Source: a virus | Virus record (IMG/VR): IMGVR_UViG_3300025913_000030 | Coordinates: 10,705 to 74,704 of that record | DNA: 64,000 bases | Reading direction: 5' to 3' (one strand) | Shown here: positions 128-61,793 of the stretch, piece after piece | Position numbering within the stretch: the first letter of the stretch is position 1 | Layout: every line of letters starts with the position of its first letter | Notes under the pieces: generated by a model | Databases searched by the model: none | Told to the model about the DNA's origin: nothing | The model's input: the letters and a program-made list of their open reading frames with translations, nothing else | Program-made: the position numbers and the translations under genes

Positions 128-186
128 GACAGGGCACAGACATGAAAGTCGGCGCAATCCCGGGGAGGAGGGACTGCGCCGACCGG

Positions 187-259
187 TAGCGGGAACGGGA
201 CTTGAACCCGTGACACAGCGATTATGAGCCGCCTGCTCTGCCGTCTGAGCTACCCCGCC
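187..259 (-). tRNA. tRNA with CAT anticodon (elongator Met, possibly Ile2)
   Basis: Reverse complement GGCGGGGTAGCTCAGACGGCAGAGCAGGCGG-CTCATAA-TCGCTGTGTCACGGG-TTCAAGT-CCCGTTCCCGCTA folds as a cloverleaf; no encoded CCA. Confidence 0.9.
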
Positions 260-2500: not shown

Positions 2501-3588
2501 CCTCCGACCCGACCGGGGGATCGGGCGCGCCTGAGTCCCCCGGTCCCGTCACCGGGGCCGTGTTCGCGGCAACCGCCGGCTATTCGGCCGCTCTGATCGA
2601 CCTGGAGGAGCAGGCGGCGCAAGTCGCCTCTGCTCCGCTGCGCGCCCGGATCGCCGAGATCCTGCGCCGCCTCACCGCGCTCTACACCTCTCTGGCCGGC
2701 TCCCCCGACGCACCGCTTCCGCCGCAGCACGCGGCGCAGCTGCTGACCGAGCTCGCTTCCGAACTGGGCTCGCTGCGCGGCATCGACCCCTCGCCGGTCG
2801 TCGCCGACTTCGCCTCCCGCGCCTATCACGCGGCCGTCGCCTTTTCCCAGGAGCAGCTCGGGCTGCTGGCCGTCGACCGCCTGCCCGGCGCGCTCGCCGA
2901 CGACGCTCTGAACCAGGCCCTGGACTCGCTGCCCGGCAGCGTGGCCGAACGCATCGACGACGCGTTGCACTTCGCGCAGCAGTCCCTGGCCACGGACCTG
3001 CGTTCCGCGGTCCTGCAGCCGGTCGCGAAGGCGAACCAGGCTGCGAACACAGCCGAAGCGGCGGCGCGCTGGGCGGTCAACCGGGCCGCCAACAGCGGCG
3101 CCGCCGACAGCGCGGCGCAGGCCGGGGCGTTCCTGCTCTGGGCCGGCGAGCCGACCGCGTGTGTCCACTGTGCCGCCCATATCGGCCACTACGTGCGCCC
3201 TGGCGACTCCTTCCCGCTCGGTCTCACCTTCGGTGACAGTGCCCTGACGCCGTGGCCGGACCCCGAGCGGCTCGACGGGCCGCCACTGCACCCGAACTGC
3301 CGGTGCAGACTGATCCCGTGGCTCGGCCCGGTGGCGCTGCACCCCGTCGACACTGCGATCTACAACCGCCCCGGCCTGCAGAACCAGGTCGACCTCGCGG
3401 CGGCGATGCGCCGGGAGGCCAAGCGCGCGATCCTGCGCGGCTGGTCGCTGCCCAGCGAGTCGGAAAAGGTGCGGCTGCGCGCGGCGGACCGGCTGCTGCG
3501 CAAGGGGGCGGGGCTGCCGAAGACGGTCGAGGCACGGGCGCGCAAAGCGGTGCACGCCAAGCACTTCCCTGACAGACACATAAGATAA
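2497..3588 (+). CDS. Minor head/MuF-like head morphogenesis protein
   Basis: ACVHC...PPLHPNCRC motif; follows portal. Confidence 0.8.
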   Translation: MTSDPTGGSGAPESPGPVTGAVFAATAGYSAALIDLEEQAAQVASAPLRARIAEILRRLTALYTSLAGSPDAPLPPQHAAQLLTELASELGSLRGIDPSPVVADFASRAYHAAVAFSQEQLGLLAVDRLPGALADDALNQALDSLPGSVAERIDDALHFAQQSLATDLRSAVLQPVAKANQAANTAEAAARWAVNRAANSGAADSAAQAGAFLLWAGEPTACVHCAAHIGHYVRPGDSFPLGLTFGDSALTPWPDPERLDGPPLHPNCRCRLIPWLGPVALHPVDTAIYNRPGLQNQVDLAAAMRREAKRAILRGWSLPSESEKVRLRAADRLLRKGAGLPKTVEARARKAVHAKHFPDRHIR

Positions 3589-33309: not shown

Positions 33310-33350
33310 AAAGAGAACCGCCCCAGTCGGCCTCGACGACTGGGGCGGTC
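33310..33350 (-). terminator. Intrinsic terminator ending the Ro/Y RNA/tRNA unit
   Basis: ACCGCCCCAGTC...GACTGGGGCGGT followed by TCTCTTTT on the minus strand. Confidence 0.75.
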
Positions 33351-33351
33351 C

Positions 33352-33535
33352 AAGTCTGGCTGATCAACTGCCTGCCGTGTCCTAGCAGATCCTCGCGGAT
33401 GGCGCGCGCACCGTCCTTGAATCAACTACCCGGAGCTGACGAGGCTCCTTGAACCACTGCAAACAGGCGGGGGAAGACCGCAGCAACCTTACTCCCGCTT
33501 TGACCCGCGCCCCTCACCGGTCAAGGCTACTCACG
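33352..33535 (-). ncRNA. Candidate structured ncRNA downstream of tRNA-fMet
   Basis: No credible ORF; hairpins TTGACC/GGTCAA, GCGGG/CCCGC, GGAGC/GCTCC, ATCC-GCGA-GGAT; ends at a terminator. Confidence 0.45.
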
Positions 33536-33543
33536 CGGATATG

Positions 33544-33617
<74 letters not shown>

Positions 33618-33725: not shown

Positions 33726-35453
33726 TTACATCGAGCGGCGCGCCTCGTGCAGCAGCTCCTGCACGTTGTCGTCCGTGCGCGGCGAGCGCAGGAACCCGGA
33801 GACCAGCTGCGGCAGCGCCGCGTCGAATCCAGCCACCTGCAGCACACCCTGCTGCTTCGGGTCGGCGATCGAGTGGCCGGCCGCGGTCATCGACGCGACG
33901 ATGACGCGCGCCTGCGGATTCACCGACGAACGGTAGCCGTCCAGAGCCTGGCTCGGGTGCTGGTACCGGCCGGCCCACGTCTCGTTGTCCGTCAGCACCA
34001 GGAACCCGTCGACCGCGATCCGCTGGGAAGCGGCCCACTCGAACGGGAGTGACAGGTCCGTCCCGCCGCCGCTCGGCTGCCAGGACGCGATCTCGCGCAG
34101 GTTGGTGCGCGGCGTGACCCGCGACCTGCGCACGGCGGTGTCGACGTCGATGACGTGGACGTTGCCCTTCTCGATCCGGGACATCGCCGCCGCCATCCCG
34201 CACGCGATCTCGTACGGGGAGCCCAGGGGCGAGCCGCCGAGCACGACCCGGCCGCCGAAGCCGTTGGACATCGACCCGGACGAGTCGACCGCGACCAGCA
34301 GCCGCTTCCCCGAAGGCTCGACGTAGCCGAAGGAGAGCTCGTAGGCCTCCTCCAGCGCATCGGAGATCGCCGCGAGCGGTGTCCAGGTGCGCAGCGGCGC
34401 CTTCGGGTTGGGCTGCGCTGCCCCCGAGTTGTAGACCTTCAGGGCGAGGTAGACGTCGAGGGGGTGGATGCGCGCCTTCTTCAACGCCTCGCCGTCGGTC
34501 AGCCGGCGTACGACCGTCGAAACGGCCTCGCCTCCATAGGGCTTGAGAGCCGCGATCCTGGTCATCCGCGCGAGATTGCGGATCAGGGCCGTCATGCCGA
34601 CCGTCTCGGTCAGCGCTTCCCAGACCTCGGGCGAGTCGAGTACCGCGTCCGGCAGGAACTCCCACGGCACGCGCAGGGTCCGCACCGCGGTGACCGCCTC
34701 CTTCGGACCTGTGACCGCCTTGGCGATCCGGTACTTCTCCACGCTCGGCAGCACCAGGGCCGCCTGCTCGTCCGGAACGTTGCCCGCGAGCCAGCCGAAC
34801 AGGGCGTCGGTCGCCGGGTCCATCTTGATCAGCGATGGCTTCGCGAGGCGCAGCATGTCCCGCAGGGCGAAGGGCTCGCCGCTGCCGGTCTTGCGCGAGC
34901 GGGCCTTGCACGCCCGGAACGCGATGCGGTCCGCGTCGTCGGCCAAGAACCAGTCGGCCAGAGCGCCGCGCATCAGCCGGTTCATGACCGGCGCGATGCC
35001 CTTCCCCGAGGGCTTGCCCTTGAGGTTCTTGTAGTAGCCCCAGAAATGCGCGAAGTGGTCGGTGGTGCGCGCGATCGATGGCAGCGCACCACGCGCCGCG
35101 CGGCGCGCGTCCAGGTCGCCTCGGGCGAAGGCCGCGGCGAGGACGAAGAGGGCCGGGAAATTCTTCGGCGCGCGGCCGGCGGTGCTGACCTCGGTGGCCA
35201 GCTGGACCGCGCGGCAGCCATCAGCCCCGATCGCGTCGAAGACCACCTGCGCGTTGGCGAAGGTGTGCTCCTTCTCCCCGACGTAGTAGGTGCCGCCGGT
35301 CGTGCCGAGGATCAGGAAGTCCTCAAGCTTCGTCCAGAGGTCCTTGCCGAAGGTGAAGCCGCCCGCGTTGTTGCGGACCATCTCGGCCTGGCGGCCGGGG
35401 ATCGGCTCGGTCTGCGGCGTGCGCACGGTGCTGACCATGGACAGGGCGTCCAT
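33726..35453 (-). CDS. rsr: Ro60/TROVE-domain RNA-binding protein
   Basis: N-terminal TPQTEPIPG..VRNNAGGF..FLILGTTGGTYY; MTALIRNLARMT, ARIHP; vWA MIDAS DSSGSM, GGTD, LTDNETW, AGFD; RBS GAAAGGA. Confidence 0.95.
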   Translation of the reverse strand: MDALSMVSTVRTPQTEPIPGRQAEMVRNNAGGFTFGKDLWTKLEDFLILGTTGGTYYVGEKEHTFANAQVVFDAIGADGCRAVQLATEVSTAGRAPKNFPALFVLAAAFARGDLDARRAARGALPSIARTTDHFAHFWGYYKNLKGKPSGKGIAPVMNRLMRGALADWFLADDADRIAFRACKARSRKTGSGEPFALRDMLRLAKPSLIKMDPATDALFGWLAGNVPDEQAALVLPSVEKYRIAKAVTGPKEAVTAVRTLRVPWEFLPDAVLDSPEVWEALTETVGMTALIRNLARMTRIAALKPYGGEAVSTVVRRLTDGEALKKARIHPLDVYLALKVYNSGAAQPNPKAPLRTWTPLAAISDALEEAYELSFGYVEPSGKRLLVAVDSSGSMSNGFGGRVVLGGSPLGSPYEIACGMAAAMSRIEKGNVHVIDVDTAVRRSRVTPRTNLREIASWQPSGGGTDLSLPFEWAASQRIAVDGFLVLTDNETWAGRYQHPSQALDGYRSSVNPQARVIVASMTAAGHSIADPKQQGVLQVAGFDAALPQLVSGFLRSPRTDDNVQELLHEARRSM

Positions 35454-35498
35454 CGTGGTTTCCTTTCGAGGATTCAACACGGCCGGGGCCGGACGCGA

Positions 35499-35533
35499 AC
35501 CGGCCCGCACGAGGGGGTGTCGTGCGGGCCGGT
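35499..35533 (-). terminator. 14-bp hairpin between Y RNA array and Ro60 gene (terminator/attenuator)
   Basis: ACCGGCCCGCACGA-7nt-TCGTGCGGGCCGGT. Confidence 0.6.
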
Positions 35534-35538
35534 CAGGG

Positions 35539-35667
35539 GACGGATGCGGGAGTGACTACCGGGTTTAAGCGTCTTAGGCCGCTAGACAACCAATCCCGAG
35601 GGATTGGACGGGATTCGAACCCGCGTCTCTCCTTTGCAAGGGGTAACCGATAATCGTTCAACCCGTC
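35539..35667 (-). ncRNA. yrlA: Y RNA (YrlA-like), permuted tRNA module with Cys-like loop TTGCAAA
   Basis: GACGGGTTGAACG...; T arm GCGGG-TTCGAAT-CCCGT, closed acceptor hairpin CCAATCC-CTCG-GGATTGG, D arm GTCT..AGAC, terminal stem. Confidence 0.85.
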
Positions 35668-35680
35668 GGTGGTGCGAGGT

Positions 35681-35811
35681 GAGCGGATACGGAGGGCGGC
35701 CACCGGTGTTAAGTGCTCTGCCAATTGAGCTACGCACCCGAAGGTGCGACGGGACTTGAACCCGCAACCACTCTCTTAACAGGAGATAACCGACGGCCTT
35801 TCAACCCGCTC
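35681..35811 (-). ncRNA. yrlA: Y RNA (YrlA-like), permuted tRNA module with Asn-like loop CTGTTAA
   Basis: GAGCGGGTTGAAAG...; TCTC-CTGTTAA-GAGA, T arm, CGCACC-TTCG-GGTGCG, D arm GCTC-AATTGGCA-GAGC. Confidence 0.88.
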
Positions 35812-35843
35812 GATCGAGCCGTCAGGCTCGGCGATTCACGAGT

Positions 35844-35980
35844 GTCCGGATGCGGTGTCGACCACCGGGTTTTAGCGCTCTACCAGTTGAGCTACCCATA
35901 CGGATCTCTCCGTTTGGACGGGATTCGAACCCGCAACCTCTCGAACCAGAATCGATAACCGACGGTCATTCAACCCGGAC
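35844..35980 (-). ncRNA. yrlA: Y RNA (YrlA-like), permuted tRNA module with Gln-like loop TTCTGGT
   Basis: GTCCGGGTTGAATG...; TCGA-TTCTGGT-TCGA, T arm, acceptor hairpin with GAGA loop, D arm GCTC-AACTGGTA-GAGC. Confidence 0.88.
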
Positions 35981-36005
35981 CAGGCTCACTGTGTTCAGTT
36001 GTCAG

Positions 36006-36075
36006 CGGAGCAGATGCGCAAAGCTGGTCCCCGGAGTCATCAGCCAGATAACCGAGAGCCTTTCAACCCGCTCCG
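36006..36075 (-). ncRNA. Short Y RNA lacking the tRNA module
   Basis: Same 5' CGGGTTGAAAGG..TCGGTTATC and 3' GCATC motifs; terminal stem CGGAGC/GCTCCG. Confidence 0.72.
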
Positions 36076-36081
36076 AGAAAG

Positions 36082-36111
36082 ACAGTACAGGGCGACGTGA
36101 CTATCCGTCAA
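36082..36111 (-). promoter_or_regulatory. Promoter plus operator driving the Y RNA-Ro60 unit
   Basis: TTGACG-18-TACTGT containing GATAGTCAC; first Y RNA starts 6 nt after the -10. Confidence 0.78.
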
Positions 36112-37964: not shown

Positions 37965-38335
37965 GCCAGAGCCTGTTCCAGCATCTGGCACAGCGCCTCG
38001 GACAGCGGACCGCCGCTGAACTCGTTGATCACGGTCAGCAGCCCCAGCGCCTCGTTGTTCAGCTGCGGGTCGCCGGGCAGCACCCAGCGCAGTACGTCCG
38101 GGTCGTTCAGGTTCCACTCCTCCCGCGGTGCGGGCGTGACACCAGTACCGCTGCGGACGGCGACCAGGCCCTTGGCCCGCAACTCGGCGAGCGCATCGCG
38201 CACGACGGTGCGGGAGACGGCGTACTGCTTCGCCAGGTCCTCGGTCGTCGTGGGGTTCGCCAGTTCGCCCGTGACAATGCGCGGGCCGAGGATGCCGGCC
38301 AGGGACTTGCCCATGGATCCTTGCGTCATGATCAT
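37961..38335 (-). CDS. Truncated GntR/FadR HTH regulator, WhiH-like
   Basis: IVTGEL..YAVSRTVVRDALAELRAKGLV..WNLNDPDVLRW; no full effector domain. Confidence 0.82.
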   Translation of the reverse strand: MIMTQGSMGKSLAGILGPRIVTGELANPTTTEDLAKQYAVSRTVVRDALAELRAKGLVAVRSGTGVTPAPREEWNLNDPDVLRWVLPGDPQLNNEALGLLTVINEFSGGPLSEALCQMLEQALA

Positions 38336-38841
38336 CGATAGGCTCCAGTCGTGATGCGGCAGCGGACCGCTTCCATGGCGCGCAGCTGCAGTTGTTTGGC
38401 CGCGCCGTCGCTGATGGCGAGCGCGGCCGAGGTCTCCTTGATCGACAGGTCACGCAGAAACCTCAGCTCCAGGCAGCGGCGCTGGTTGGGGACCAGGCCG
38501 CGCAGCGCCTGATTGACCGTGGTGCGGTACAGCGTCTGCTGGACCTGCTCCCACACGTCGGGGGCGACGCGGTCGGCGTCGTACATGTCTGCCGTGGGCA
38601 CTTCGCAGCGCACGCGCGCCGACTTCAGATGGTCGGCGAGCAGGTTGCGCGCGATCGTGACCAGCCACGCCTGCCTGCAGCTGCCGCGCTCGGTGTAGCT
38701 GTCCCAGCGGGCCAGGGCACGGGCGAAGGTCTCCGCCGTCAGATCCTCGGCGGTCTCGTGGTGGCGCAGCCGCTTGTAGAGGAACTGGAAGACGAACCGG
38801 TGACTCTCGCGGTAGGCCTGCTCGATCCCGTCAGCGTCCAC
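38332..38841 (-). CDS. ECF sigma factor, BldN-like
   Basis: TAEDLTAETFARAL, AWLVTIARNLLADHLKS, LRF..LSIKET..GAAKQLQLRA. Confidence 0.9.
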   Translation of the reverse strand: MDADGIEQAYRESHRFVFQFLYKRLRHHETAEDLTAETFARALARWDSYTERGSCRQAWLVTIARNLLADHLKSARVRCEVPTADMYDADRVAPDVWEQVQQTLYRTTVNQALRGLVPNQRRCLELRFLRDLSIKETSAALAISDGAAKQLQLRAMEAVRCRITTGAYR

Positions 38842-60312: not shown

Positions 60313-60724
60313 CAGGCGCCTCCTCAAGGATCTTGAGCATTTCGTTGGCGCTGAGCAGCCTTACCCCGGTCGTGACAAGCGCCATGACCGCCTTGCCGGC
60401 ACGCAGCCAGCAGTACGCACAGCACGGCTCACCGATGGCCTCGTGCATGTGCAGCGACTCGTTGCGATGCAGGAACAGAGCGACGACGTCGACCATCGCC
60501 TCCCGCTCCGGACCGGCCCACTGCACTGCCTGCGCACGGTAGTCGGTCCCAGTGGGCGCGGGCAGCCGGCCCGGGAGGGAGCCGAGCACCGTGCGCAGGT
60601 CGCCGAACGTGAAGTCGTAGCCGGCGATGTCGAGGATGGGGGTGTCGTCGGTCGCGCCTTCGGCCTGCGCCGTGGCAAGGAACGCGGCAGCGGCTTCGGC
60701 GGCCTGGTCGAGTGCGGTGCCCAT
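60296..60724 (-). CDS. Hypothetical protein
   Basis: Coupled ORF. Confidence 0.55.
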   Translation of the reverse strand: MGTALDQAAEAAAAFLATAQAEGATDDTPILDIAGYDFTFGDLRTVLGSLPGRLPAPTGTDYRAQAVQWAGPEREAMVDVVALFLHRNESLHMHEAIGEPCCAYCWLRAGKAVMALVTTGVRLLSANEMLKILEEAPDGDRA

Positions 60725-61494
60725 CAGCGCGCCTTCAGACCGTTGCGTCGCCTAAGCGTGCGGGCGTAGTCCTCAAACCTCGCCTTGGCGATCACAGACC
60801 GGTCCTGGGTCCGCAACACGATGCCCTCTGCCCGTCCGCCTGCGTTGCTGTCGAGCGCGACCAGGGTCTCCGGTGCGTACTTCTCCAGCCACGCCGCCGT
60901 GTCCTCGACCGTGGCCGGGAGCATCTGGACCGGGAATTCAGCCAGACGTGGCGTCAGCTCGATCTGCTCGGTCTCGGCAGCGCGCCGCAGAACGGACTCG
61001 TTCGCGAAAGTCTGGTAGCCGTTGTCCCGCCATGCGGCGATGTGCTCGCGCTCCCATTCCAGGACCTCGAACGGGACGAATGCGATGTCGAATAGCCGGA
61101 AACCGACCGCACCGGCCCCGGTGTACTGCTTGGCCTGACCGCCGATACGTGCGCCGTACGTCTCCAGAAAATACACCGTGGCCCGATCGCTGACACCCTG
61201 ATCGCCGGTGAGCCGTTCGGCTACCGGGCGCAGAGTGTGAACGATGCCGAGAGCGTCGTTGTAGACACGGTCGCCACGGGCCATCAGCAGTTCTTCGCGG
61301 GAGCCGATGAACCAGTCGCCGTCCGGCATCAAGATGATGCGGGAGTTGGTGCCGTCCACCTTCTCAGTGAGGATCACCTCCTCTCCCGAGAACTCGATCA
61401 CCTCCTCGGTCAGGCTGCCGCGTTCACCGAGGAGGTGATAGGTCGGGATCGACGGGTACTTCGTCGCCGAATTCAGGGCACGCAAATCGGTCAC
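60724..61494 (-). CDS. RNA ligase (ATP-dependent nucleotidyltransferase family)
   Basis: KYPSI..EKVDGTN (motif I), FRLFDI, EGIVLR, IAKAR. Confidence 0.82.
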   Translation of the reverse strand: MTDLRALNSATKYPSIPTYHLLGERGSLTEEVIEFSGEEVILTEKVDGTNSRIILMPDGDWFIGSREELLMARGDRVYNDALGIVHTLRPVAERLTGDQGVSDRATVYFLETYGARIGGQAKQYTGAGAVGFRLFDIAFVPFEVLEWEREHIAAWRDNGYQTFANESVLRRAAETEQIELTPRLAEFPVQMLPATVEDTAAWLEKYAPETLVALDSNAGGRAEGIVLRTQDRSVIAKARFEDYARTLRRRNGLKAR

Positions 61495-61793
61495 TGGACT
61501 CCCTCCTTCGTTCTCGATTGCTGGACGTACAGTTCGATGCGGGCCGACAGGTTGGCGACGGCCTTGGTCAGCTCGCGCATGTCGGACAGCAGCACCTCGG
61601 GGTCCAGCTCCGGCTGCGTGGACTCGCACAGCAGCGCGGAGCGCACCTCGGCCAGGTTGAAACGGCGGTGTCCGCCCGGCGTCACGTCGAACGGGATCTT
61701 CTTCAGGACCGCGTACCGCCCGATCGTCGCCTGGCTGACGTAGAGCGCCGCGGCGACCTGGCCGGCCGTCAGGGAGCGGATCGGGGCGGTCAC
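61491..61793 (-). CDS. Second BldC-like MerR HTH protein
   Basis: LTAGQVAAALYVSQATIGRYA...TPGGHRRF. Confidence 0.78.
   Translation of the reverse strand: MTAPIRSLTAGQVAAALYVSQATIGRYAVLKKIPFDVTPGGHRRFNLAEVRSALLCESTQPELDPEVLLSDMRELTKAVANLSARIELYVQQSRTKEGVQ

What the first reader, a model, noticed from the sequence alone, without database searches (positions are those of the whole stretch)
35539..36111. Array of Y RNAs that are circularly permuted tRNAs with three different anticodon loops
Seen: four tandem minus-strand units share a terminal stem with 5' CGGGTTGAA(N)G..TCGGTTA and 3' G(C/T)ATC(C/T)G. Three contain tRNA arms in the order anticodon arm, variable loop, T arm, acceptor stem sealed by a tetraloop, D arm, so the tRNA is opened between the D and anticodon arms and grafted onto the Y stem. 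The loops are TT-CTG-GT (Gln-like), CT-GTT-AA (Asn-like) and TT-GCA-AA (Cys-like, weaker stem; a TGC register is possible). Established: YrlA RNAs are tRNA mimics encoded beside Ro60 orthologues in bacteria and some phages, with a GNCGAAN(0-1)G Ro-binding motif; as I recall they are usually drawn without an anticodon loop. Inference: these cannot be aminoacylated yet display diversified anticodon loops, so they may be a panel of Ro-stabilised decoys against host anticodon nucleases or tRNA-modifying toxins, or precursors of permuted tRNAs.
Basis: partly seen in the sequence, partly recalled or inferred. Interest (0 to 1): 0.92.

Follow-up and report, generated by a model that had tools for sequence, protein, structure and literature searches.

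The report
Phage Y RNAs displaying tRNA anticodon arms
Upstream of a phage's Ro60 gene lie four small Y RNA genes, three of them rotated tRNA look-alikes that each display an exact copy of a different host tRNA's anticodon loop, a feature of this known RNA class that the papers I could read label a variable arm.

Summary
On the minus strand, 86 bases upstream of a Ro60 gene, lie one minimal Y RNA (36074-36007) and three YrlA-class Y RNAs (35980-35844, 35811-35681, 35668-35539).

In 100 distinct homologues from phages and Streptosporangiaceae genomes it has a 7-base loop that ends 9-10 bases before the T stem. Loop positions read C/U32, U33 (95%), three free bases (35 triplets), R37 (97%) and A38 (88%). 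The four flanking loop bases change with the triplet as they do in real tRNAs of a Nonomuraea genome.

The three window loops equal that genome's tRNA-Gln(CUG), tRNA-Asn(GUU) and tRNA-Ala(UGC) loops. The third is therefore Ala-like, not Cys-like. The D and T arms do not match the tRNA of the same anticodon, so the mimicry is confined to the loop.

A metatranscriptome contig covers just the array.

Function is untested. I favour non-chargeable stand-ins or baits for proteins that read anticodon loops. Hughes et al. 2020 proposed nuclease inhibition for Salmonella YrlA. The same module also sits in ordinary bacterial chromosomes.

This scan reported anticodon arms on phage Y RNAs before, on other DNA (e1-5694908, e1-5889036, e1-5751023, e1-5945131).

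The parts
36082..36111 (-). Possible promoter: TTGACG, 18 nt, TACTGT, ending 7 nt before unit 1
   Evidence: Read by eye; coordinates checked. The strict consensus scan did not list it. Inference only.
36007..36074 (-). Unit 1: minimal Y RNA with the terminal stem, GGGUUGAA box, UCGGUUAUC box and GCAUCUG box, and no tRNA module
   Evidence: Model R1 hit at 35.1 bits, E 2.3e-5. Folds as one long hairpin, -31 kcal/mol, z -2.7. A short first unit recurs in related loci.
35844..35980 (-). Unit 2: YrlA-class Y RNA with a Gln-like arm
   Evidence: Rfam YrlA 36.1 bits, E 4.3e-6. Alignments.
35940..35956 (-). Unit 2 anticodon-arm mimic: 4-bp stem UCGA/UCGA, loop UUCUGGU (35951-35945), triplet CUG
   Evidence: Coordinates. 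The loop is identical to tRNA-Gln(CUG) of a Nonomuraea genome. The loop ends 10 nt before the T stem.
35681..35811 (-). Unit 3: YrlA-class Y RNA with an Asn-like arm and a UUCG-capped 6-bp acceptor-like stem
   Evidence: Rfam YrlA 50.7 bits, E 2.5e-10. The minimum-energy fold shows the closing stems, a variant of the arm hairpin (not the exact 4-bp stem with 7-nt loop), and the T, acceptor-like and D arms.
35771..35787 (-). Unit 3 anticodon-arm mimic: stem UCUC/GAGA, loop CUGUUAA (35782-35776), triplet GUU
   Evidence: loop equals the tRNA-Asn(GUU) loop. In this unit alone the loop can also pair with the 3' linker over 7 bp. That pairing is not conserved: 48% of cells paired, which is background.
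35539..35668 (-). Unit 4: YrlA-class Y RNA of a second body type (4-nt variable loop AGAC, D arm GUCU/AGAC, 7-bp acceptor-like stem capped by CUCG)
   Evidence: R1 alignment. Rfam YrlA 22.2 bits on the T-to-D part. Orthologue alignment.
35629..35645 (-). Unit 4 anticodon-arm mimic, weak stem (C31.A39 mismatch): loop CUUGCAA (35640-35634), triplet UGC
   Evidence: Loop equals the tRNA-Ala(UGC) loop. Thermodynamics alone prefers CCUU-GCA-AAGG.
35498..35534 (-). Strong G+C-rich hairpin between the array and Ro60 with no U tract: possible terminator, attenuator or processing site
   Evidence: -35.1 kcal/mol, z -5.1. A weak 6C RNA match, E 0.52, is not significant. The RNA-library contig ends at 35530.
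33726..35453 (-). Ro60 (Rsr) orthologue, 575 aa
   Evidence: Pfam vWA_Ro60 1.1e-37 and TROVE 2.5e-19. phrog_850 'RNA-binding protein' 3.2e-58.
33543..33617 (-). Initiator-like tRNA-Met(CAU) just downstream of Ro60
   Evidence: Rfam tRNA 64.8 bits; ARAGORN. The A1 x C72 mismatch and three G-C pairs in the anticodon stem are read from the sequence.
33315..33351 (-). Intrinsic terminator closing the unit
   Evidence: 15-bp stem followed by a U run.

Best explanation
Shown here. The array encodes one minimal Y RNA and three YrlA-class Y RNAs, the partner RNAs of the Ro60 protein encoded just downstream. In each YrlA a Ro60-binding stem carries a tRNA-like module wired as anticodon arm, variable loop, T arm, hairpin-closed acceptor stem, D arm. 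The hairpin published as the 'V arm' is an anticodon-arm mimic. It has a 3-5 bp stem and a 7-nt loop, and it sits 4-5 nt before the T stem. The loop reproduces the complete anticodon loop of a particular cellular tRNA: here Gln-CUG, Asn-GUU and Ala-UGC. The rest of the body belongs to a few constant scaffolds.

Inferred. The RNAs are made as one precursor and held by Ro60. They act as non-chargeable, isoacceptor-specific stand-ins for tRNAs. They occupy or bait proteins that read anticodon loops. The most likely partners are anticodon-loop nucleases in a tRNA-damage response, with the YrlA acting either as a competitive inhibitor or as a bait whose binding or cleavage changes what the Ro60 particle does.

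Confidence. I put the structural part at about 0.9. The functional part is inference, at about 0.35-0.45.
For: Hairpin position and loop size:
- With sequences anchored on the T stem and no gaps allowed, a 7-nt loop ending 10 or 9 nt before the T stem gives 3 or more contiguous pairs in 52% + 26% of 69 viral units. Every other frame gives 1-25%. In the combined set of 191 the figures are 37% + 21%.
- The first three stem pairs are canonical in 0.63, 0.62 and 0.55 of units, against 0.36, 0.44 and 0.42 after shuffling partners.
- RNAalifold on a plain MAFFT alignment predicts the hairpin de novo. It finds 15 and 17 double changes at two pairs and none broken.

Loop composition in 100 distinct units:
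- Position 32 is C in 80% and U in 15%.
- Position 33 is U in 95%.
- Positions 34-36 carry 0.13-0.23 bit each, with 35 different triplets.
- Position 37 is A in 74% and G in 23%.
- Position 38 is A in 88%.

Agreement with real tRNAs:
- G37 follows G36 in 20 of 25 units, against 3 of 75 otherwise (Fisher 1.5e-13). The real tRNAs of Nonomuraea thailandensis follow the same rule, 13 of 14.
- 87 of 100 triplets are anticodons of that genome.
- All four flanking loop bases equal the tRNA of the same anticodon in 62 of 87 units. The permutation null is 44 +/- 2.4, maximum 56 in 10,000.
- With one loop per triplet the match is 18 of 29, against a null of 11.4 +/- 1.5, p 5e-5.
- All three window loops match exactly.

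Loop-only mimicry and panels:
- The D arm, variable loop and T arm are not those of the tRNA with the same anticodon (median rank 16 of 59).
- All 14 loci with two or more such units carry different triplets.
- The orthologues of unit 4 read UCC and GAA on the same scaffold.

Other support:
- tRNA finders and GenBank annotators call such units tRNAs.
- Expression hint: in a rhizosphere metatranscriptome from another study, one 538-nt contig covers 35530-36065 with 3 differences. Ro60 is covered only patchily and the upstream gene not at all.
- Context: Ro60, an initiator-like tRNA and an RNA ligase family gene elsewhere in the phage.
- In print: YrlA as a possible competitive inhibitor of an anticodon nuclease (PMC7790460).
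Against: - No experiment bears on these RNAs. Ro60 binding, processing, modification and any partner are all inferred.
- Contigs cannot show strand or transcript ends, and an RNA library can hold DNA.
- Whether the hairpin stacks under the D stem like an anticodon arm or projects like a variable arm cannot be told from sequence. A conserved UUA/UAA pairing next to it never varies, so it says nothing either way.
- The host tRNA set is a proxy (Nonomuraea). The phage's host is unknown.
- Related sequences are not independent, and the 30 rows used for covariation were chosen because they have the hairpin.
- About a third of units lack the hairpin, for example the Ro60-proximal unit in Streptosporangiaceae.
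- 13 of 100 triplets have no tRNA in the proxy genome (UCG, AUU, UCA, UUA, AAU, AUG). The CUUCGGA loops could be C-G-closed UUCG tetraloops.
- The module also lies among ordinary chromosomal genes, which weakens a purely phage-versus-defence reading.
- A decoy must compete with abundant cellular tRNA.
- Salmonella YrlA works without any such loop (10.1101/312249).
- The unit 4 stem is weak.
Confidence: 0.45

Rival explanations
1. The hairpin is only the variable arm as published. Its loop looks like an anticodon loop because YrlA descends from tRNA and a U-turn loop is stable. The triplet drifts freely, and nothing reads it as an anticodon.
For: Chen et al. 2014 assign it to the variable arm. 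Positions 34-36 carry almost no information. Salmonella YrlA has no such loop yet is a functional Ro60 partner. About a third of units lack the hairpin.
Against: The loop flanks covary with the triplet as they do in the tRNA of the same anticodon, while the bodies do not match that tRNA. The G36-G37 rule holds. A34 is rare (6%), as in real tRNAs. The spacing of 5 + 4-5 nt to the T stem is that of an anticodon stem plus a class I variable loop. From my own knowledge, the variable arms of class II tRNAs have 3-5 nt loops and sit 1-2 nt from the T stem.
Confidence: 0.2
2. The loops are guides. They pair with codon-like triplets on the ribosome, or with complementary anticodons of other tRNAs. This brings Ro60 and its exonuclease partner to particular ribosomes or tRNAs.
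For: The full anticodon-loop geometry is kept, including the 32-38 identities that tune decoding. D. radiodurans Rsr associates with degrading ribosomal subunits (PMC4201824).
Against: Three-base pairing is weak off the ribosome. I found no complementarity pattern or target. The sealed acceptor end is not what ribosomal sites expect.
Confidence: 0.1
3. Some units are cut in the acceptor loop by RNase P and receive CCA. They then become two-piece molecules that can be charged and take part in translation or amino-acid transfer.
For: M. smegmatis YrlA, with a 7-bp stem, is cut by RNase P and gains CCA in vivo (PMC4201824). Acceptor-like stems peak at 7 bp (41 of 101). Unit 4 has 7 bp.
Against: Units 2 and 3 have 9-position (one mismatch) and 6-bp stems capped by GAGA and UUCG. 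Unit 4 has A3-U70, not the G3.U70 that alanine charging needs (established knowledge; sequence). The Y stem interrupts the body at position 26/27.
Confidence: 0.05
4. They are true permuted tRNA genes that are rearranged into ordinary tRNAs.
For: All tRNA parts are present in rotated order.
Against: Neither the acceptor ends nor CCA are encoded. The Ro60-binding stem and boxes are conserved with the units. From my own knowledge, no bacterial machinery for such rearrangement is known. tRNA models score below threshold.
Confidence: 0.02

Closest known systems
YrlA (Y RNA-like A), Rfam RF02553; Chen et al. 2014 (PMC4201824); structure of Salmonella YrlA, Wang et al. 2018 (10.1101/312249)
   Same: Encoded upstream of Ro60 on the same strand. 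Has a 5' box resembling GNCGAAN0-1G, the YUAY motif, T arm, hairpin-closed acceptor stem and D arm in that order, and a covarying Levitt pair. Occurs in actinobacteria and actinophages, and often alongside a second, shorter Y RNA.
   Different: The Salmonella type, and the Rfam consensus, has no hairpin before the T arm. There the stem that continues into the Ro60-binding module stands for the anticodon stem, and the papers state that YrlA lacks an anticodon loop. Here, and in most actinobacterial and phage members I looked at, a complete anticodon arm precedes the T arm, and the Ro60 stem joins at position 26/27. The published drawings label this hairpin a variable arm. Its loop signature, its identity with real tRNA loops and its variety within arrays are not mentioned in the papers I could read.
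Proposed role of Salmonella YrlA as competitive inhibitor of an SOS-induced anticodon nuclease (Hughes et al. 2020, PMC7790460)
   Same: A tRNA-like Y RNA in a Ro60 context linked to tRNA cleavage and RNA repair. The idea is the same: a tRNA look-alike that occupies a tRNA nuclease.
   Different: That YrlA has no anticodon loop and was not cleaved. Here the loops are present, specific and diverse, which makes the idea testable one tRNA species at a time.
Phage-encoded tRNAs that withstand tRNA-targeting host defences
   Same: Phage RNAs with anticodon loops of particular tRNA species, often in arrays near RNA repair genes.
   Different: Those are working, chargeable tRNAs that replace the cleaved ones. 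These have a sealed acceptor end, carry a Ro60-binding stem, and also occur in bacterial chromosomes.
Thermus phage phiLo Ro60 with Yrl1 and Yrl2 (PMC12135203)
   Same: A phage Ro60 with several Y RNA-like genes just upstream; binding shown in vitro.
   Different: Those RNAs are described as stem-bulge-stem Y RNAs. The text does not contain the terms 'tRNA-like', 'YrlA' or 'anticodon'.

Membership tests
YrlA-class Y RNA | Encoded within about 4 kb of a Ro60 (TROVE) gene on the same strand | tested here: met
   The array ends 86 nt upstream of the Ro60 start codon on the same strand.
YrlA-class Y RNA | GNCGAAN0-1G box near the 5' end | tested here: inconclusive
   All four window units have GUUGAA(N)G, with U in place of C. 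Homologues have GUCGAA, GCCGAA or GCCGGA in the same columns.
YrlA-class Y RNA | YUAY motif, then T arm, hairpin-closed acceptor-like stem and D arm, with tRNA-like conserved bases and a covarying 15:48 pair | tested here: met
   UUAUC or UUACC, then the three arms, in units 2-4. All helices covary in 30 homologues. The 15:48 pair is G:C in 19 and A:U in 11, with no exception.
YrlA-class Y RNA | Score at or above the Rfam RF02553 gathering threshold (69 bits) | tested here: not met
   Scores are 50.7, 36.1 and 22.2 bits, although the E-values of 2.5e-10 and 4.3e-6 are significant. The Rfam consensus has no hairpin before the T arm.
YrlA-class Y RNA | Bound by Ro60/Rsr; carries pseudouridine 55 and dihydrouridine | not testable with these tools
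   Needs co-immunoprecipitation and modification mapping.
Canonical tRNA (RF00005) | Cloverleaf order acceptor, D, anticodon, T, with free 5' and 3' ends | tested here: not met
   The order is rotated and the acceptor stem is closed by a tetraloop. The tRNA model scores 21.1, 18.3 and 16.3 bits against a threshold of 29. ARAGORN finds none here.
Canonical tRNA (RF00005) | 7-nt anticodon loop with U33 and purine 37 | tested here: met
Permuted tRNA genes of the red-alga type (recalled from the literature) | Halves in swapped order that are processed through a circular intermediate into a normal tRNA | not tested
   No end or junction data. The sealed acceptor stem without CCA and the conserved Ro60 stem argue against it.

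The most novel reading that the evidence does not exclude
As shown for M. smegmatis YrlA, units with a 7-bp acceptor stem (here unit 4) are cut by RNase P and given CCA. Because these units also carry an authentic anticodon loop, the product would be a two-piece, Ro60-tethered molecule with every working part of a tRNA, able to be charged or to enter the ribosome.
Probability: 0.05. Interest if true: 0.95.

Novelty: new variant of a known kind. Interest (0 to 1): 0.72.

Why it matters
The partner of the tRNA-like half of bacterial Y RNAs has been an open question since 2014. Published work points to the tRNA elbow and states that YrlA has no anticodon loop.

If most actinobacterial and phage YrlAs instead display exact copies of particular tRNA anticodon loops, in panels that differ between close relatives, then the partner probably reads anticodon loops. 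The question then becomes directly testable with loop swaps, modification mapping and nuclease competition assays in tractable systems such as Gordonia or Mycobacterium phages.

There is also a practical point. tRNA finders and GenBank records already list some of these RNAs as tRNA genes, which inflates phage tRNA counts.

Tried and rejected
- Rfam at gathering thresholds finds only two tRNA-Met genes in the window, and ARAGORN calls none of the units.
- A naive 'best hairpin' search and minimum-energy folds of the short segment were noisy, because the purine-rich 3' side pairs in several registers. I replaced them with frames anchored on the T stem.
- Long-range pairing of the loop with the 3' linker is perfect over 7 bp in unit 3 and is used by the Rfam alignment and the centroid fold. 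It is not conserved: 48% of cells paired, which is background.
- I tested whether each unit derives from the tRNA with the same anticodon. It does not: the bodies do not match.
- UUA/UAA pairing next to the arm is 81% paired but never varies, so it is uninformative.
- My first pass on the bacterial loci used the wrong column for the T stem and was redone.
- A mixed set of tRNAs from the fetched loci was contaminated with Y RNA calls. I replaced it with the tRNAs of one genome.
- RtcB was not found in the phage.
- The strict promoter scan found nothing.
- Neighbouring ORFs gave no informative family.
- Read laying: parts of Ro60 and the upstream gene had no cover in the RNA run. Runs X3 and X4 hold mostly relatives, and small shares were not interpreted.
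- Not held, so not read: Sim et al. 2020 (Annu Rev Microbiol), Boccitto and Wolin 2019, Burroughs and Aravind 2016, and the supplements of Chen et al. 2014. I therefore cannot exclude that the anticodon-like nature of the V arm is mentioned there.

Full report
WHAT IS THERE

The window is part of a complete 74.7-kb virus record with terminal repeats and 68% G+C. On the minus strand a Ro60 orthologue (33726-35453; vWA_Ro60 1.1e-37, TROVE 2.5e-19) is preceded by four tandem units. Each unit carries GGGTTGAA near its 5' end and G(C/T)ATC(C/T)G near its 3' end.

Rfam finds nothing here at gathering thresholds. With E-value reporting, YrlA (RF02553) matches units 3, 2 and 4 at 50.7, 36.1 and 22.2 bits (E 2.5e-10, 4.3e-6, 0.045).

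Unit 1 (36074-36007) is a 68-nt hairpin with the boxes but no tRNA part.

Units 2-4 share these parts:
- a 6-bp terminal stem and a 9-bp second stem, both with compensatory changes between units;
- UUAYC;
- a hairpin;
- 4-5 nt, then a T arm;
- an acceptor-like stem closed by GAGA, UUCG or CUCG;
- a D arm;
- a conserved linker, CUWAAMM.

A strong hairpin (35534-35498, -35 kcal/mol) separates the array from Ro60. An initiator-like tRNA-Met follows Ro60, and then a terminator.

IS THE HAIRPIN REAL AND WHAT IS IT

I built a covariance model from units 2-4 and left the hairpin region unstructured. It found 102 matches upstream of Ro60 genes in viral contigs (hits fell in 51 of the 80 sources searched, window included) and 200 matches in 80 bacterial loci. 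The bacterial loci are mostly Streptosporangiaceae, whose Ro60 is 56-67% identical to the phage's.

Anchoring each unit on the start of its T stem, without gaps, I asked which loop size and distance gives a stem. A 7-nt loop ending 10 or 9 nt before the T stem gives 3 or more contiguous pairs in 52% and 26% of 69 viral units. All other combinations give 1-25%. The combined set of 191 gives 37% and 21%. Canonical pairing at the first three stem positions exceeds every one of 500 partner shuffles.

RNAalifold on a plain MAFFT alignment of 30 units predicts the same 7-nt-loop hairpin de novo. Two of its pairs show 15 and 17 double changes, and none is broken. Those rows had been chosen for having the hairpin, so it is the variety of pair types that counts, not the absence of breaks.

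The competing long-range pairing, which is perfect in unit 3, is at background across homologues.

THE LOOP IS AN ANTICODON LOOP

Composition in 100 distinct hairpin-bearing units:
- position 32 is C in 80% and U in 15%;
- position 33 is U in 95%;
- positions 34-36 carry 0.13-0.23 bit each, with 35 different triplets;
- position 37 is A in 74% and G in 23%;
- position 38 is A in 88%.

The distance to the T stem equals 5 (stem) plus 5 or 4 (variable loop, typically AGGUY or AGAC).

G37 follows G36 in 20 of 25 units, against 3 of 75 otherwise. I fetched the tRNAs of a Nonomuraea thailandensis genome, which itself carries such an array. They obey the same rule (13 of 14). Their loops include UUCUGGU (Gln-CUG), CUGUUAA (Asn-GUU) and CUUGCAA (Ala-UGC), which are exactly the loops of units 2, 3 and 4.

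Across the set, 87 of 100 triplets are anticodons of that genome. All four flanking loop bases equal the tRNA of the same anticodon in 62 of 87 units, against a permutation null of 44 +/- 2.4. With one loop per triplet the match is 18 of 29, against 11.4 +/- 1.5, p 5e-5.

By contrast the D arm, variable loop and T arm do not resemble the tRNA of the same anticodon (median rank 16 of 59). The loops are therefore mimics carried on a few constant scaffolds, not leftovers of recently captured tRNAs.

Every one of 14 loci with two or more such units carries different triplets. Orthologues of unit 4 in the two closest relatives read UCC and GAA. UCC differs from UGC by a single base in an otherwise conserved arm.

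Unit 4 therefore reads UGC, not GCA. Its stem is weak (C31.A39), and on thermodynamics alone another small hairpin is preferred.

WHAT WAS ALREADY KNOWN

Chen et al. 2014 describe YrlA in more than 250 bacteria and 22 phages, including actinobacteria and mycobacteriophages. They note a 'less-conserved' stem-loop V upstream of the T arm and assign it to the tRNA variable arm. The only 'anticodon arm' they discuss is in D. radiodurans Yrn1.

Wang et al. 2018 state that YrlA lacks the anticodon loop, which is true of the Salmonella RNA they solved. The Rfam consensus likewise has no hairpin there.

Mycobacterium phage Cali belongs to the same phage type as the ET08 sequence in the published alignment. 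That relationship is my inference from its taxonomy (Bixzunavirus Bxz1); ET08 itself was not compared here. Cali has the arm with loop AUUGCAA. So the arm is in published alignments, but I found no paper that reads it as an anticodon arm. Two reviews and one comparative paper were not available to me.

The idea that YrlA might inhibit an anticodon nuclease is in print for Salmonella (PMC7790460). Notes of this scan had already reported anticodon arms on phage Y RNAs on other DNA. My tests here are independent of those notes.

EXPRESSION AND CONTEXT

In a rhizosphere metatranscriptome from a study other than the likely source, a single 538-nt contig covers 35530-36065, that is, the array, with three differences. 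Ro60 is covered only in low-depth pieces and the upstream gene not at all. This is a hint of transcription as one precursor. Contigs show neither strand nor ends.

A possible promoter (TTGACG, 18 nt, TACTGT) ends 7 nt before unit 1. I read it by eye and the strict scan did not list it.

The phage also encodes an RNA ligase family protein (60724-61629) but no RtcB.

The bacterial loci with the same arrays have ordinary chromosomal neighbours. Ten of 151 sampled Actinomycetes genomes have matches. The module is therefore cellular as well as viral.

HOW IT MOST LIKELY WORKS

Shown: the anatomy, the conservation and the loop identity.

Inferred: Ro60 binds the conserved stem, and the tRNA-like half then presents a specific anticodon loop without a chargeable end.

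The covariation of positions 32, 37 and 38 with the triplet implies a partner that distinguishes real tRNA species by their loops. I rank anticodon-loop nucleases first, with the YrlA as competitive inhibitor or bait within a tRNA-damage response. Modification enzymes, synthetases and the ribosome come next.

The presence of the module in chromosomes, the abundance of real tRNAs and the loop-less Salmonella YrlA all caution against a simple phage-decoy story.

The rivals are scored above: a plain variable arm, guides, two-piece chargeable RNAs and true permuted tRNAs.

VERDICT

This is a new variant, or an overlooked property, of a known family. It bears directly on the open question of what the tRNA-like half of bacterial Y RNAs binds.

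Noticed in passing
window 33543-33617 (-): An initiator-like tRNA-Met(CAU) lies directly downstream of Ro60. It has an A1 x C72 mismatch and three G-C pairs in the anticodon stem. ARAGORN also finds a near-identical tRNA-Met(CAU) in one of the fetched related loci, which I did not identify. An RNA-library contig covers 33358-33701.
   Followed up: partly
window 33352-33542 (-): About 190 nt between the tRNA-Met and the terminator has no credible ORF and no Rfam match. It is covered by the same RNA-library contig.
   Followed up: no
L083 2485-2551 (Microbacterium phage SM23); L084 2779-2846 and 2965-3053 (Gordonia phage Boopy): Three GenBank tRNA features coincide with Y RNA units found by the model: 'tRNA-Asn', 'tRNA-Ile' (gene 160) and 'tRNA-Leu' (gene 158). 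The first two are the 5' halves of units at 2484-2613 and 2777-2903. The third overlaps the unit at 2983-3112. ARAGORN makes at least 19 such calls in the fetched loci.
   Followed up: yes
window 60724-61629 (-): A 301-aa protein of the RNA ligase family (PF09414 2.4e-12; phrog_548). RtcB is absent from the phage.
   Followed up: partly
L085-L164, unit nearest Ro60 (e.g. L100:2303-2442): In many Streptosporangiaceae arrays the Ro60-proximal YrlA has a short segment, UUAUCGGGAACAGGUUGUC, in place of the anticodon arm. This is a conserved loop-less class beside the loop-bearing ones.
   Followed up: no
e.g. L153:2197-2328, L076:2157-2287: Loops reading CUUCGGA (triplet UCG, which has no tRNA in the Nonomuraea set) could instead be UUCG tetraloops closed by C32-G37 with A38 bulged.
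   Followed up: no
window 38332-38841 (-): A sigma factor-like protein (phrog_1740, 4.8e-21) lies a few genes upstream of the array.
   Followed up: no
window 35498-35534 (-): A very stable hairpin (-35 kcal/mol, z -5) without a U tract lies between the last Y RNA and the Ro60 ribosome-binding site. It may be an attenuator or a processing site.
   Followed up: partly
window 185-259 (-): A second tRNA-Met(CAU) gene lies far from the Ro60 unit.
   Followed up: no
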